A stretch of DNA of 64,000 nt. Source: Callorhinchus milii (taxonomy: Eukaryota). The stretch is from the NCBI RefSeq assembly GCF_018977255.1, contig NW_024704951.1:1-64000 (forward strand), written 5' to 3'. Positions 24,001 through 63,000 of the stretch are shown here, in pieces (position 1 is the stretch's first letter; every line of letters starts with the position of its first letter). Position numbers: made by a program.

Positions 24001-27000
24001 ACAAAGGTTGTCAGTGACATTCATGTCGCGGGCAGGGATATTTACCTGCACGATGATAGACTCGCTCATGCTGTGTGAGCTAAAATGGTTTATGATGATA
24101 GTTTACCAGACCGTAGCGTGGGTAGCAAGCGGGTGCGGAGAACCGAGTGTACACATCAACTTCAGGCATAGCCGCCAGCTCGGACCTTGCTACTTTGTCT
24201 ACCGACCTTAGCTCAAAATAGGGGGAAGACAGAACTTTCTCATGACGTTGCGAAACCCTATGTGAGTTGGATGGAGTGGAGGGCGGATAAACTCGAAGAG
24301 GACGCAGGAGGGCGACCTATATAGTAATCTGAACGACTTACAATTCGGGATATCACGGTAATTCCTACGTATTTGTCGCTGGGAAGCAACACTGCAGGTG
24401 TGCCGTTAAAAGCTCACTAGAAGAGCCCGTATTCATCGTGACGGAAGAAGATTCAGATTCCTAAGCGACAACTCTCTAGCAGGATGGCGGATTCCACACG
24501 GTTGCGATGCGAAATACCTAAGCATCATCTAACACCCCCAGAATCAACAGAGTTAAGTCCGCCGCTGGAAGCTAGAGACCGTAGTTTGGCCCATACAGTT
24601 GGCGCCCGAGGATCCCTTCAGATTTTAAACGCGCTTATAGGGCAGGAACTTGGGACTTCTCAGAGAAATTGTTGGATGCGAGCGCTTGCTATTATACCGA
24701 GATTGCCCTGTCTCTGCCATGTCTTTTCATGCATAGAGTAAACACACCTGCCCCTCACGATTGAAACCTCGCAGATTGGTATCGTGACTTCCACTTAGAG
24801 TCAAGTACCACTTGACCTCGGCGATAGCATACAGATGTACAAAATCAGCATGGAACATAAAAGGTTGACTCCGGGTAATGAGCGTTAGAGTGTCGAGGGA
24901 TATAGTTATCCCCGTGCCCATGCAATGCACTACAGTACTTGTTTCGATTGTGATGTGAATTTTATATTCTTATTCTTGGTTCTTTCGGTAAAGTCACGTA
25001 GAAGGGAAATAATAAAATAATAATAAAAAACGATAAATATGCCTCGAAGCCCTATGTTAATCCAAAACTCGAAGCATACAATTTCGGTTGTCTGACTAGA
25101 AAATGAATATTTATGAAAGCTAAATTCAGCTAACAAAGCAAAGGGTGTTGAAAATAATACTGTTTGTATTATGCATAAATTAATGTTCAAACGAAACTTA
25201 GAGGTGTGAAGCCAGGCTTAAGTATTGAATATCGCACTTTTAGCTTTCGCTCAGCAATTTCCAAGAAGGTAATTTATTTTCTGTCGATCGAGTACAGAAG
25301 AGGAGTACGGATTTTTAGCGGAAACTCGATTTCTGCATTTTTATATAATTAATGCCTATAGTATCATAAAGAGGCTTGGGGCTTTTGGTTGTTTGTTTCG
25401 GGTCCAGTTCCACTTGTTGGAGACTCAGTGGAACGTAGACCCTAGATGTAGACGAAGGTTTCTTAAGGTTGAACAACAACGCCGGTTCCTCTGGGGGACC
25501 CGGCTTATATTCTCTGCGGTTTGGCTGGCTCCCTCCCTTGGCCACGACCACTTTCCAGAATCCTCGAGCAGGATCTGGACCTCGACCACGTGACCACCCC
25601 TAGCCCCCACTTGGGGCCCTTCGTAGACTTAACTGGTCACGTGTCCTCTCGGGTCAACCAGAGTGCCATGGCCTTTAGTAACCTCATTCCTACGGCCGTC
25701 ACTCCCACACCCTATCCTGTAGGGCCAGCACTGCATGCCAAGCGTGGTGCCATCCTGCGCTATCAATCAGCGCTCTAGGGCTGGTACGACACCCACCATA
25801 GTGGTATCCGCGATGTCGTTACACCGCACGCCGTGCCTCTCGAGGGCCAGCACGACACAGTGACATCCCGCGATGTCACTAGATCTGTAAGAGTTTATCT
25901 GTGGGGAGCGGTGGCGCAGTTATTACACTGTGTAACAAAAAAACATTTTTGTTCCTGGGTAGTGTTATTTCCTCATTGCCTATTCCTCAAAAGTACAGAT
26001 TATTCCCCACAAACTTTGCTTTTTTGATCAGGACAGTGATATTTTGAAATTTACCTATTTTCAATGAGAAAACGGGCTAATTTGTGTCTTTTCGTTCACA
26101 TAAAGTCCTGGTCACAAAAGCAAAGTTTGTGGGGAATAATAGCGATTTTGTATACTTTTTAGGCATACGCAATTAAAAAATAACACTTTGTACACAGGAA
26201 CAAAAATTGTGTTACATAGTATTATTACTGTATTATGAATTCAATAATTTGAGTTTGATTATCTCCGACAACAAACGTGATTGATAAGTGAAAACTTAAC
26301 TTCTTGTGGGTCTCGGCTATGTTGATTGATCTTCAATTAATTACTTGGTGAAGTGAGAGAAGCATTCATATTGAGCAGATGAAGGTGGCCAGGCATGGTT
26401 CTGGACACACCACCACCTTTTTACCATGCCAGTGTGTAACAGTGTCAAGTTTGTATTTGCAGTAAAGTATATTAACTCTATTGAACACGGAGGTTAAATC
26501 AAAACAATAGTTTATTTTAGTTTTCCTTTGGAACTTTTTACGAAAATGAACACGACACATATGCAGCTGAAGTTAGTTCTGTTCATCCCAGCATTCAAGG
26601 AAATCTGAGCCTGGCTTCACACCTCTAAGTTTCGTTTGAACATTAATTTATGCATAATACAAACAGTATTATTTTCAACACCCTTTGCTTTGTTAGCTGA
26701 ATTTAGCTTTCATAAATATTCATTTTCTAGTCAGACAATCGAAATTGTATGCTTCGAGTTTTGGGTTAACATAGGGCTTCGAGGCATATTTATGACTATT
26801 TGCCCTCATTGTTTGTCATAACAGCCCGTGTGATGAATTTGGGAATATTAATAAGTATAGACGTGTAAGTCATATGTGCCTCGATACTTACGTAGATGGT
26901 GTGGATATTCTCTTTTTTCTGTCTGCAGCTGACGCTTCCTCTGACGCTTCCTCTGCAGAATTGGTCTGATGGAGCAAAGACCCTCAGCGCAGTTTGGTAC

Positions 27001-60000: not shown

Positions 60001-63000
60001 CGTGTCCTCTCGGGTCATCCAGATTGCCTTTCGTAACCTCATTCCTACGGCCGGTACTCACACACCCTATCCTGTAGTGCCGGCACTGCACGCCAAGCAT
60101 GGTGCCATCCTGCGCTATCAGTCAGCGCTCACCGTGCCCCTTTAGGGCCGGTAGTACACCCATCATAGTGGTATCCGCGATGTCGTTACACCGCATGCCA
60201 TGTTTCTCTAGGGCCGGCACTACACAGTGACATCCCGCGATATCACTACATCTGTAAGAGTTGATTTATGTGGTGAGCGATGGCGTAGTTATTACACTGT
60301 GTAACAAAAAAACATTTTTGTTCCTGGGTAGTTATTTCCTAATTGCCTATGCCTCAAAAGTACAGAAAATGCTATTCCCCACAAACTTTGCTTTTCTGAC
60401 TAGGACAGTGATATTTTGAAACGTGCCTATTTTCAATGATAAAATGGGCGAATTTGTGTCTTTTCTTTCACATAAAGTCCTGGTCACAAAAGCAACGCTT
60501 GTGGGGGATAATAGCGATTTTCTATACTTTTTAGGCAAAATAAATTGAAAATAACACTTTGTACCCAAGAACAAGATATGTTTTACATCGTATTATCATT
60601 GTATTATGAACTCAATAATTAGAGTTTGATTATCTCCGACAACAAACGTGATTGATAAGTGAAAACTTAACTTCTTGTGGGTCTCGTCTGTGTTGATTGA
60701 TCCTCAATTAATTACTTGGTGAAGTGAGGAAGCATTAATATTGAGCAGATGAAGGTGGGCAGGCATGGTTCTGGACACACCACCACCTTTTTACCATGCC
60801 AGTATGTGACGGTGTAAAGTTTGTATTTGCAGTAAAGTATATTAACTCTTTTGAACACGGAGGTTAAATCAAAATAATAGTTTATTTTGTTTTCCTCTGG
60901 AACTTTTTATAAGAATGGAAACAGGAAATTAACACAGCACATATGCAGCTGAAGTTAGATCTGTTCATCCCAGCATTCATGGAAATCTGAGCCTCGCTTC
61001 ACACCTTGAAGTTGTGATTAAGTTGTGATTGAACATTAATTTAAGCTTTGTTAGCTGAATTTAGCTTTTATAAATATTAATTTTTTAGCCAGACAACCGA
61101 AATTGTGTGCTTGGAGTTTGGGTTAACATTCATTTTGAAGATACTTGGGCTTACAGGCATATTTATGACCATTTGCCCTCTCATTGTTTGTCATAACAGC
61201 CCGTGTGATGAATTTGGAAATATGTTTCACTATATCATGAACATGTCAATAAGTATAGATGTGTAAGTCATGTGTAACTGTGTATATAATTATTCCTCTG
61301 TGCCTCGATACTGATGTAGATGGTGTGGATATTCTCTTTTTTCTGTCTGCAGCTGACGCTTCCTCTGCAGAATTGGTCTGATGGAGCAAAGGCGCTCAGC
61401 GCAGCTTGGTACAAAAAGGCAACAATGCGACCATTGTGCATACAGCACGGATCAAACTGGACATTTGACACAGCACCAAAGAACTCACACAGGAGAGAAA
61501 CCCTTCAAGTGCACTTTGTGTGACAAGGCATTTGCATGGTCATCAGGTCTTCATCACCACGAGAGAACACACAAAGGAGAGAAACTCTTTAGGTGTACTC
61601 TGTGCGGGAAGGCGTTTGCACAATCACCACATCTTCAAATACACCAGAGAACACACACGGGAGAGAAACCCTTCAAGTGCAGTGTGTGTGGGAAGGCGTT
61701 TTCACAGTCATCTAATCTTGTATCACACCAGAGAACACACACAGGAGAGAAACCCTTCAGGTGCACTTTGTGCGGGAAAGCGTTTTCAGGCTTATCAAAT
61801 CTTAAAACACACCAGAGAACACACACGGGAGAGAAACCCTTCAAGTGCAGTCTGTGCGGGAAGGCGTTTACAGTGTTATCACATCTTAAACAACACCAGA
61901 GAACACACACAAAAGAGAAACCTTTCAAGTGCACTGTCTGTGAGAAGGCATTTGCATGGCCATCAGGTCTTAATTGCCACCAGAGAACACACACGGGAGA
62001 GAAGCTCTTCACGTGCACTCTCTGCGGAAGGCGTTTGCTCAGTCATCCATTCTTAAAACACACCAGAGGACACACAATCATCAGAAGATCCCAAGGAGTG
62101 GAGTCTGAAATCGGCTTGTGAAAGTCAAAGTGCTGCAATCAGCCCATCCTCATGAAACCAGAACTAAAGCCCAGCTTGGACACTTTTGAAGGTATCAAGG
62201 TGAAATGTGAAGAGGCGAAGGTGAAATGTGAAGTAGTGATCAAGAGCGAAGAAATGACGATGAAATGTGAAGTGATGGTGAAGAGAGAAGTGATGGTAAA
62301 CTGTGAAGATGAAGATTCAACTCCGAAATTGGACCTTCACATCGGAGGGTGGCAACGTGAAGCAGGAGGAGATTTCTGACTGTGAGGCAGAGGGAGGCAA
62401 CTCCCAGCAGTTTGTGGAAGTAGAGGTGTGGGTCGACTTCTTAGACAATACAAAGTCAAATGGAGACCCGGTAGATGTGTAAGCTTGGGACAATGAAGCT
62501 CCAATAGATTCACCTCTGTCACAGGCCTTTAATGAAAAGAACGTGAAGTCGAACACTCAATTCCTGGGTTTAACCTGCAGAGTAAGAGCGACCAGTATTT
62601 GTGGATCTGTGGGTTGGGTAGATGATTAACCATGAGCAAGAGCCAATAAGCTCCCAAGTGTTGTATATATTAGGTCTTGAAAAAGAATGAAAATTAAATG
62701 ATAACTGAAAATGCGCAATGTTTTGAAATGATGCTAATTATGTATTTATGCTATATCTCGGGGTATTACCAATCGTGATAATAATATAAAGGTGTAATTG
62801 TATGAAGTTATGCAAGTGTATGTAATTATGCGAATTAGGCTCTGCTTCGTTGTCTCAGGGTGTATTACCAATCGTGCTAATACATTGACTTAAAGCTGGA
62901 TTCATATTCTTTGGACCTTTCGGTAAAGTCACGTAGGTAGGTTTTTGTTATTTTCTTTGAACCTATCAACGTGACTTTACCGAAAGACCTAAAGAATATA

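What the first reader, a model, noticed from the sequence alone, without database searches (positions are those of the whole stretch)
24924..62665. Recently amplified tandem array of KRAB-less C2H2 ZNF genes in an ~8.8 kb unit
Seen: four near-identical units plus an older paralog, each with one ZF exon. Established: tandem ZNF clusters (KRAB-ZNF in tetrapods, FiNZ-ZNF in cyprinid fish) expand rapidly and often silence TEs. Inference: this may be an independent lineage-specific ZNF family caught mid-expansion. The TE mix (V-SINE-like, Rex3-like, Penelope, Helitron) suggests a non-amniote vertebrate; a cyclostome such as hagfish is only a guess.
Basis: partly seen in the sequence, partly recalled or inferred. 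Interest (0 to 1): 0.7.

Follow-up and report, generated by a model that had tools for sequence, protein, structure and literature searches.

The report
Lamprey zinc-finger gene tandem array
This stretch of a lamprey genome holds a young head-to-tail array of about 8.7-kb units, each carrying a copy of a lamprey-only zinc-finger gene with an unusual tail, but most copies look broken as assembled.

Summary
The repeat is real. There are three full units (8,930, 8,736 and 8,644 bp), a fourth cut short, and an older diverged unit, all head-to-tail on the + strand.

Each unit has one coding exon: a 15-residue leader, 7-9 C2H2 fingers, and a tail of about 135 residues. No KRAB, SCAN, BTB or ZAD domain was found.

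The tail places the window in a lamprey. All 42 tail matches are Lethenteron, Petromyzon or Lampetra proteins. Only 10 of 1.84 billion cluster representatives carry the tail.

The tail has no Pfam, PDB or Atlas match and is predicted disordered. It holds six psi-K-x-E motifs against 0.57 expected.

As assembled, no copy encodes the full canonical protein. Only unit 1 keeps all fingers in frame, and its tail is cut by a 1-bp deletion.

Interior units carry far more small indels than substitutions, so some breaks may be assembly errors.

Verdict: a real lineage-specific ZNF cluster evolving by birth and death, a new variant of a known kind. Function, true copy number and any germline restriction are untested.

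The parts
24921..33850 (+). Tandem unit u1 (8,930 bp), first unit. The left array boundary is at 24921.
   Evidence: There is no similarity between 1-24920 and the array.
33851..42586 (+). Tandem unit u2 (8,736 bp)
   Evidence: 0.44% substitutions against u1, but 58 gap events. Only 3 private substitutions against 14 private small indel events in the four-way region.
42587..51230 (+). Tandem unit u3 (8,644 bp). Its gene segment belongs to a separate, older lineage; the rest is near-identical to u1 and u2.
   Evidence: It has 106 private substitutions, concentrated at u1-equivalent 25481-28705 and 29430-29726. 23 are shared with u5. Its tail is nearest to the L. reissneri protein P0001 (94% over 124 columns).
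51231..56510 (+). Tandem unit u4, young part only. It is truncated and passes into older sequence at about 56510.
   Evidence: u4-private substitutions begin at u1-equivalent 30434.
56510..62659 (+). Older diverged unit. Remnants of the spacer lie at 56796-57296 and 57333-57510. A 2.3-kb insert carries a 404-nt palindrome at 58867-59270. The gene segment u5 is 59817-62659.
   Evidence: 74-86% identity to the young units; 246 substitutions and 29 gap events against u1.
26969..28158 (+). u1 coding exon. ATG at 26969; 8 canonical fingers plus 1 terminal variant; tail. The frame as assembled stops at 28034-28036 after a 1-bp deletion (G5 to G4) near 28026. The canonical family stop is at 28156-28158. 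Candidate splice acceptors lie before 26929 and 26959.
35889..36909 (+). u2 coding exon. Two 1-bp deletions (about 36143 in an A-run, about 36415) split it into three frames. The full tail, including the canonical end, is open at 36397-36909.
44607..45589 (+). u3 coding exon remnant. It has more than 20 small indels, only one finger still reads as intact, and the canonical stop is altered.
53262..54243 (+). u4 coding exon. Six canonical fingers plus the terminal finger are in frame. A 1-bp deletion at about 53873 follows, then a 42-bp in-frame tail deletion, and the same G5-to-G4 deletion as u1 at about 54111.
61381..62482 (+). u5 coding exon. Seven canonical fingers are in frame. 1-bp deletions lie at about 62025, 62089 and 62147, and a 1-bp insertion at about 62350.
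30200..30270 (+). Candidate non-coding 5' exon with a GT after ...CACAACACA. The same segment recurs at about 38955-39025, 47595-47665 and 56280-56350. If used, it would splice across the unit boundary to the next unit's coding exon.
   Evidence: Inference. The peptide motif FQKRPAHN(T) read from this DNA is joined directly to the leader region in the gene models P0027 and P0044, and is also present in P0024. CpG observed/expected is about 0.9-1.26 across 29121-31200, against 0.3-0.5 in the coding exon.
25033..26793. Foldback or TIR element with 186-nt arms (99% complementary) and a 1,389-nt interior, just upstream of the coding exon in u1; its arm sequence recurs in u2 and u4 (family D18).
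   Evidence: (I1)

Best explanation
The region is a genuine tandem cluster in a lamprey genome. Its members belong to a lamprey-restricted C2H2 zinc-finger family.

Gene structure. Each unit holds one coding exon. It encodes a short leader (MEQR...), 7-9 fingers joined by TGEKP-type linkers, and a disordered tail of about 135 residues rich in lysine and acidic residues. The tail contains a 12-13-residue internal repeat carrying psi-K-x-E motifs. In the family it ends in a nearly invariant hydrophobic-acidic motif (...FVEVEVWVDFL...PVDV).

How the array grew (inferred). It grew by unequal crossing-over between units and evolves by birth and death. It contains three lineages: a very young one (u1, u2, u4), an intermediate one (the u3 gene segment) and an old one (u5). 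Finger number changes in 84-bp steps. u5 and u3 are pseudogenes. u1 is the only copy with all fingers in frame, and it has lost the last 44 tail residues. Some breaks in the interior copies, u2 especially, may be consensus errors.

How the protein works (inferred). The fingers bind DNA sequence-specifically, with specificity diversified at helix positions -1, +3 and +6. The tail is the effector. Its clustered SUMO-acceptor consensus sites would be SUMOylated and would recruit SUMO-dependent repressive chromatin factors.

What is shown and what is inferred. Shown: the repeat anatomy, the family restriction, the tail features, and the pattern of substitutions. Inferred: the recombination mechanism, the 5' exon, SUMOylation, and repression.
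For: Array:
- Same-orientation units with identical junctions.
- Mosaic identity along the units.
- 84-bp finger indels, including a u1-only finger that repeats finger 3.

Family:
- 42 of 55 candidates match the tail at E<=1e-3, and all are lamprey proteins: 14 P. marinus, 9 L. reissneri, 11 L. fluviatilis and 8 L. planeri.
- 7 of the 14 P. marinus hits lie on one 3,748,913-bp contig.
- An exhaustive phmmer search found 10 of 1,835,955,588 representatives.
- 23 of 47 fetched proteins start MEQ(R/M)(H/Q)S, and most end ...VEVEVWVDFL...PVDV.

Past function:
- Between u1 and u5, 21 of 42 recognition-helix positions differ against 10 of 105 other finger positions (Fisher p = 2.8e-7).
- Across 179 fingers from 43 proteins, entropy peaks at -1, +3 and +6 (3.1-3.5 bits).

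Tail:
- No Pfam match (best E 0.14), no PDB match at E<=10, and no Atlas match.
- AlphaFold2 with a 31-row alignment gives mean pLDDT 45.3, pTM 0.15 and no secondary structure.
- Six [VILMF]KxE motifs in 136 residues against 0.57 expected; 0 of 10,000 shuffles reach six.
- V76, K77 and E79 are nearly invariant, and V74, K97 and Q98 are invariant.
- The abstract of PMC3395311, as shown in the listing, states that most studied SUMO substrates contain [IVL]KxE.
Against: - No copy in the window encodes the full canonical protein.
- dN/dS between u1 and u5 is 0.78 in the fingers and 1.9 in the tail, the latter on only 14 changes. Overall constraint is therefore weak.
- Coding DNA is only slightly more conserved than flanking DNA (89-90% against about 86%).
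- There is no expression evidence. The 5' exon is inferred only from gene models in other species, and some of those models are clearly fused or TE-contaminated (P0024, P0048, P0049).
- SUMOylation is predicted from a four-residue motif alone.
- An acidic, hydrophobic end could equally be an activation domain.
- The tail tree has no branch with 95% or higher support.
Confidence: 0.6

Rival explanations
1. Assembly artefact. The array's copy number or its interior copies are products of mis-assembly or poor polishing of a tandem repeat. The true locus would then have fewer (or more) copies, and the frameshifts would be consensus errors.
For: - u1 against u2: 38 substitutions but 58 gap events, 49 of them 1 bp. 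The old pair u1 against u5 shows 246 substitutions to 29 gap events.
- u2 has 3 private substitutions against 14 private small indel events. The edge copies u1 and u4 have 5 each.
- 25 of 49 u1-u2 1-bp indels lie in runs of 3 or more bases, against 19% of bases overall.
- Most frameshifts sit in short homopolymers.
Against: - The units are not identical copies. u1 has 17 private substitutions. u3 carries 23 states shared with u5 and a tail closest to an annotated L. reissneri protein.
- Finger numbers differ by clean 84-bp steps.
- The three junctions are identical and the window has no gaps.
- u5's indel-to-substitution ratio is normal, so its frameshifts are probably real.
Confidence: 0.2
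2. Dead array. All five copies are pseudogenes, and the recent amplification is neutral segmental duplication of non-functional DNA with no bearing on ZNF function.
For: - Every copy departs from the canonical frame.
- u1 and u4 share the same tail-truncating deletion, so it predates their duplication.
- dN/dS is near 1.
- The window's ORFs are not among the database proteins. No hit was flagged as the window's own.
Against: - u1 keeps 355 codons open through all nine fingers and 97 tail residues.
- Annotated relatives with shortened tails exist (P0002, P0045).
- Differences from u5 are concentrated in recognition helices, which neutral decay would not produce.
- Some breaks may be sequencing errors.
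Confidence: 0.3
3. The tail is an activator module rather than a repressor. The acidic-hydrophobic end (...FVEVEVWVDFL...) would act as an acidic activation domain, and the psi-K-x-E sites would act as SUMO-dependent 'synergy control' brakes on it.
For: - Tail composition is E 19, K 17, V 16 and D 10 of 136 residues, with W and F in the conserved end.
- The tail is predicted disordered.
- Papers on synergy-control motifs in activation domains appear in the listing (PMC3554661, PMC3373386). Only titles and the start of abstracts were seen.
Against: Nothing here tests it directly. Rapidly duplicating tandem ZNF clusters described so far are mostly repressors (recalled knowledge).
Confidence: 0.25

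Closest known systems
Annotated but uncharacterised lamprey proteins, such as L. reissneri 'zinc finger protein 664-like' (P0001) and P. marinus 'uncharacterized protein LOC1429082xx' (P0002-P0005)
   Same: Same leader, same finger type, and a homologous tail (E 7e-44, 89% identity to the u1 tail for P0001; 94% to the u3 tail). They are also clustered in P. marinus: 7 of 14 hits lie on one contig.
   Different: The window's copies are not in the database. They differ in finger number and are frame-broken as assembled.
KRAB-ZNF clusters of tetrapods
   Same: Tandemly duplicated poly-C2H2 genes with TGEKP linkers, variable finger number, and diversification at DNA-contact residues.
   Different: There is no KRAB domain. 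The candidate effector is C-terminal, disordered, and encoded in the same exon as the fingers. TRIM28 recruitment is not testable here.
FiNZ-ZNF of cyprinid fish and ZAD-ZNF of insects (Wells et al. 2023, PMC10547256; only a term search of the text was done)
   Same: Independent, lineage-restricted ZNF families that expand in tandem arrays.
   Different: Those families are defined by N-terminal domains. Here only 15 residues precede the first finger. That paper does not contain the words lamprey, Petromyzon, cyclostome or jawless.
SUMO-dependent repression modules and synergy-control motifs in transcription factors
   Same: Clustered [IVL]KxE motifs in a disordered regulatory region (motif as stated in the abstract of PMC3395311, seen).
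   Different: No modification, SUMO binding or repression has been shown for this tail.

Membership tests
KRAB-ZNF | N-terminal KRAB domain (Pfam PF01352; accession recalled) | tested here: not met
   Pfam scans of the window ORFs found only zinc-finger-type families above threshold. No KRAB appears in the precomputed Pfam lists of the 42 + 2 relatives.
KRAB-ZNF | Tandem C2H2 fingers with TGEKP-type linkers | tested here: met
   zf-C2H2 E 4.9e-52 with 8 stretches in u1; fingers listed; linker consensus.
KRAB-ZNF | Recruitment of TRIM28/KAP1 | not testable with these tools
   No assay is available here, and no complex was predicted.
FiNZ-ZNF / ZAD-ZNF / SCAN-ZNF / BTB-ZNF | Family-specific N-terminal domain | tested here: not met
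   Only 15 residues precede the first finger cysteine in u1 and in 23 of 47 relatives. No such Pfam family was hit. FiNZ itself was not scanned with a dedicated profile.
Lamprey tail-bearing ZNF family (unnamed) | Leader MEQ(R/M)(H/Q)S... directly before finger 1 | tested here: met
   All five copies keep the ATG and the leader DNA. 23 of 47 fetched proteins start this way.
Lamprey tail-bearing ZNF family (unnamed) | Homologous tail of about 135 residues after the last finger | tested here: met
   (E down to 7e-44), and alignment A1.
Lamprey tail-bearing ZNF family (unnamed) | Conserved C-terminal motif ...FVEVEVWVDFL...PVDV read in frame with the fingers | tested here: inconclusive
   The DNA for it is conserved in all five copies, but in none is it in frame with a complete finger array as assembled. 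Some of the breaks may be assembly errors.
SUMO substrates / SUMO-dependent repressors | Clustered psi-K-x-E acceptor consensus | tested here: met
   Six motifs in 136 residues against 0.57 expected; 0 of 10,000 shuffles reach six.
SUMO substrates / SUMO-dependent repressors | Actual SUMO conjugation and repression | not testable with these tools
   Needs biochemical and reporter assays.
Germline-restricted (programmatically eliminated) lamprey DNA | Present in germline DNA and absent from somatic DNA | not testable with these tools
   No read data are available. The two germline-chromosome papers searched contain no 'zinc' or 'ZNF' in their main text. Their supplementary gene tables could not be seen.

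The most novel reading that the evidence does not exclude
Lampreys evolved their own counterpart of KRAB-ZNFs. This would be a family in which a disordered C-terminal poly-SUMO-site tail, rather than an N-terminal KRAB box, couples rapidly diversifying finger arrays to heterochromatin formation on transposable elements. It might also mark the DNA that lampreys eliminate from somatic cells. This array would then be a snapshot of that family's birth-and-death turnover.
Probability: 0.15. Interest if true: 0.8.

Novelty: new variant of a known kind. Interest (0 to 1): 0.45.

Why it matters
Rapidly evolving tandem ZNF clusters are a recurring answer to transposable elements, but each well-studied case uses a different effector domain.

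Jawless vertebrates have not been covered in this respect. Eight full-text searches and seven in-paper term searches found no description of this family.

A lamprey-only family whose effector candidate is a disordered C-terminal tail packed with SUMO-acceptor motifs would add an independent solution. It would also give a concrete, testable handle on gene silencing in an animal that discards part of its genome.

The window also illustrates a practical point. Interior copies of young tandem arrays carry an indel excess that can mimic pseudogenisation.

Tried and rejected
- Species by nucleotide search: not possible, because no eukaryotic DNA collection is on hand. The genome-contig collection (prokaryotes) was not used.
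The source of those five proteins therefore stays unknown.
- Rfam and ARAGORN: nothing found. The resemblance of the 30215-30245 segment (minus strand) to a tRNA head is my own reading and is unconfirmed.
- Six-frame Pfam scan of whole stretches: rejected by the tool because of stop codons. It was redone on stop-free ORFs. 122 of the 272 selected ORFs of 45-69 aa were scanned. The 150 lying in 1-20,262 were not.
- First Pfam scan: 121 of the 214 ORFs of 70 aa or more were sent. The 93 left out lie in units u2-u4 or overlap the finger exon of u1 in other frames.
Two sub-threshold chance hits only.
- Fold search: not run, because the tail model is low-confidence (pLDDT 45).
- tblastn of the family against the window: gave hits confounded by finger repeats and was not used. 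It was replaced by a tail-only tree.
- An early idea that all of u3's differences are sequencing noise was rejected, because 23 of them match u5 and its tail matches P0001 best.
- The left flank 1-24920 shows no similarity to the array and no Pfam domain. It was not studied further.

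
Full report
**Observation**

The window has no N. From 24921 onward it is built of head-to-tail repeats.
- Direct-repeat families recur every 8.64-8.95 kb.
- Self-BLAST aligns 27230-45381 to 35982-54075 at 96.6% over 18,326 columns.
- I place the units at 24921-33850 (u1), 33851-42586 (u2), 42587-51230 (u3) and 51231 onward (u4).
- The three internal junctions are identical, and the left boundary joins unrelated sequence.
- Nothing in 1-24920 resembles the array.

u4 is not complete. From u1-equivalent 30434 (window about 56510) it carries a run of private substitutions. 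It then continues into sequence only 74-86% identical to the young units. This comprises spacer remnants at 56796-57296 and 57333-57510, a 2.3-kb insert with a 404-nt palindrome, and the gene segment 59817-62659. It is really a whole older unit.

**What each unit carries**

Each unit has one long + strand ORF region made of C2H2 fingers. For u1, Pfam gives zf-C2H2 at E 4.9e-52.
- Reading from the ATG at 26969, u1 encodes a 15-residue leader, eight canonical fingers, one terminal finger with H-x5-H spacing, and a tail.
- In-frame stops lie just upstream of the ATG, behind two candidate splice acceptors. The coding sequence is therefore a single exon.
- No other Pfam domain was found. I scanned 121 of the 214 ORFs of 70 aa or more and 122 ORFs of 45-69 aa covering 20.1-33.7 kb and 56.6-64 kb.

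**Whose genome it is, and what family**

I searched with the tail alone (98 residues of u1).
- 42 proteins reached E<=1e-3 among 55 candidates, and every one is a lamprey protein: 14 Petromyzon marinus, 9 Lethenteron reissneri, 11 Lampetra fluviatilis and 8 Lampetra planeri.
- The best hit is the L. reissneri protein 'zinc finger protein 664-like' (P0001, 89% identity).
- 7 of the 14 P. marinus hits lie on one 3.75-Mb contig, so the family is clustered there too.
- An exhaustive phmmer run with the full 136-residue tail of u2 found only 10 of 1.84 billion cluster representatives. Five of those 10 (P0015, P0024, P0039, P0040, P0041) are named lamprey proteins. The other five have no name, and the tool that could have named them was switched off.
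- Searching longer proteins gave two hits. Both are gene models that fuse several family members or TE fragments, and both carry only finger-type Pfam families.
- None of the hits was flagged as encoded by the window itself.

The window therefore comes from a lamprey. The species was not determined, because no eukaryotic nucleotide collection was available.

The family has a constant plan.
- 23 of 47 fetched proteins start MEQ(R/M)(H/Q)S.
- Finger number runs from 0 to 8 canonical fingers in the listed models.
- Most end ...FVEVEVWVDFL(R)DNTKSNGDPVDV.

**State of the five copies**

Aligned to each other and mapped:

| Copy | Fingers | Breaks relative to the family frame |
|---|---|---|
| u1 | 9, all in frame | 1-bp deletion (G5 to G4, about 28026) ends the frame 44 residues early, removing the conserved terminal motif |
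| u4 | 7 | The same G5-to-G4 deletion, another 1-bp deletion right after the last finger, and a 42-bp in-frame tail deletion |
| u2 | 7 | Two 1-bp deletions inside the fingers; the complete tail is open in a third frame |
| u3 | about 7, only one still reads as intact | More than 20 small indels |
| u5 | 8, terminal one broken by a frameshift | Three 1-bp deletions and one 1-bp insertion |

Finger number changes by clean 84-bp steps. u1 has a private extra finger that repeats finger 3. It also retains a second finger that u5 has and u2-u4 lack. As assembled, no copy encodes the full canonical protein.

**Are the breaks real?**

The old pair u1/u5 differs by 246 substitutions and 29 gap events, about 8.5 to 1. 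I take this as the local biological baseline.

The young pairs are very different.
- u1 against u2 has 38 substitutions and 58 gap events, 49 of them 1 bp.
- In the four-way region, private substitutions and private small indel events are: u1 17 and 5, u2 3 and 14, u3 106 and 78, u4 2 and 5.
- The two edge copies look clean. The two interior copies have an indel excess.
- 25 of the 49 u1-u2 single-base indels lie in runs of three or more, against 19% of bases overall.

This pattern is what incomplete polishing of the interior of a tandem repeat would give. I regard u2's frameshifts as doubtful.

u3 is not mere noise.
- 23 of its differences are shared with u5, and 60 are unique to it.
- Its tail is closest to the L. 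reissneri protein P0001 (94% over 124 columns, SH-aLRT 91).
- It is therefore a separate, older lineage embedded between young units, with a mosaic of near-identical flanks.
- It still has about 38 private small indels in 2.7 kb. These are either decay or errors.

u5's indel ratio is normal, so I take its frameshifts as real.

**How the array arose (inference)**

The evidence is same-orientation units, identical junctions, mosaic identity and finger-number changes in whole-finger steps. These fit unequal crossing-over and gene conversion among at least three older units, followed by very recent amplification of one type. u1, u2 and u4 differ by about 0.4% or less in the gene segment.

**Evidence that the genes were functional during their divergence**

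- Between u1 and u5, 21 of 42 recognition-helix positions differ, against 10 of 105 other finger positions (Fisher p = 2.8e-7).
- Across 179 fingers of 43 family proteins, entropy is highest at -1, +3 and +6.
- Overall dN/dS between u1 and u5 is 0.78 in the fingers and 1.9 in the tail, the latter on only 14 changes. Average constraint is therefore weak.

**The tail**

- No match in Pfam (best E 0.14), in PDB sequences at E<=10, or in the ESM Atlas.
- AlphaFold2 with a 31-row family alignment gives mean pLDDT 45.3, pTM 0.15 and no secondary structure. I read this as a disordered region carrying short motifs.
- It contains a 36-39-nt internal tandem repeat.
- It has six [VILMF]KxE motifs in 136 residues against 0.57 expected; 0 of 10,000 shuffles reach six.
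- The VKCED and VKQEE sites and the terminal FVEVEVWVDFL block are invariant or nearly so.
- [IVL]KxE is the usual SUMO-acceptor motif (abstract of PMC3395311, seen in the listing).

My preferred mechanism is fingers for DNA recognition plus a SUMOylated tail that recruits repressive factors. The main functional rival is an acidic activation domain held in check by SUMO 'synergy control' sites. Both are inference.

**Candidate 5' exon**

A segment at about 30200-30270 recurs in every young unit. Read in one frame it gives ...FQKRPAHNT, followed by GT. The same peptide is joined directly to the leader region in the P. marinus isoform P0027 and in the unnamed model P0044, and it occurs in P0024.

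CpG observed/expected is about 0.9-1.26 across 29.1-31.2 kb, against 0.3-0.5 in the coding exon.

If this is the first exon, each transcription unit starts in one repeat unit and ends in the next. Each was examined on its own.

**Literature**

Eight full-text searches found no description of this family. Term searches inside seven papers found none either.
- The metazoan ZNF survey (PMC10547256) has no occurrence of lamprey, Petromyzon, cyclostome or jawless.
- The two sea-lamprey germline-chromosome papers (PMC10166183, PMC12184396) have no occurrence of zinc or ZNF in their main text.
- Their supplementary gene tables were not available to me and could bear on the germline question.

**Verdict**

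It is too generous in calling the copies genes in mid-expansion. The cluster is a birth-and-death array in which at most one copy is plausibly coding, and assembly quality inside the array is open to doubt.

It is a new variant of a known kind of system. The unusual part is the family's C-terminal disordered tail rich in SUMO-acceptor motifs.

Noticed in passing
window 25033-26793 (u1); arm sequence recurs in u2 and u4, family D18: A large foldback or TIR element with 186-nt arms (99% complementary) around a 1,389-nt interior lies just upstream of the coding exon in u1. The older unit lacks the left arm region.
   Followed up: partly
window 24966-25036, 29621-29675, 29696-29766, 33896-33966, 58878-58938, 59199-59262: A 55-71-nt MITE-like terminal motif recurs in both orientations. 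Copies lie near the array's left boundary and unit junctions and inside the 404-nt palindrome at 58867-59270.
   Followed up: no
window 29121-31200 and equivalents: CpG observed/expected is about 0.9-1.26 around the candidate 5' exon, while the coding exon is CpG-depleted (0.3-0.5). This could mark an unmethylated, promoter-like region.
   Followed up: no
window 30215-30245, minus strand, and equivalents: The candidate 5' exon DNA, read on the minus strand, resembles the 5' part of a tRNA (A-box-like, my own reading). This suggests a SINE-derived exon. ARAGORN and Rfam found nothing.
   Followed up: partly
window 30554-30622, 39305-39373, 47943-48011, 56632-56732: A (TAGTGTATAGTG)n microsatellite is present in each unit and is expanded in u4.
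   Followed up: no
window 32000-34000, 40000-42000, 50000-52000: There is strong strand asymmetry (GC skew 0.21-0.31, C-poor on the + strand) in the spacer part of each unit.
   Followed up: no
window 33851-51230 (u2, u3): The interior units carry many more 1-bp indels than substitutions, unlike the edge units. This looks like a consensus-quality problem of the assembly inside the repeat.
   Followed up: yes
window 1-24920: The left flank has higher GC (0.47-0.51 against 0.40-0.46 in the array), no similarity to the array, and no Pfam domain in the ORFs scanned. ORFs of 45-69 aa in 1-20,262 were not scanned.
   Followed up: partly
proteins P0048 (1,590 aa, L. reissneri) and P0049 (701 aa, P. 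marinus): The long relatives are gene models that run through several tandem family members or TE-derived sequence. Public annotation of this family is therefore unreliable.
   Followed up: partly
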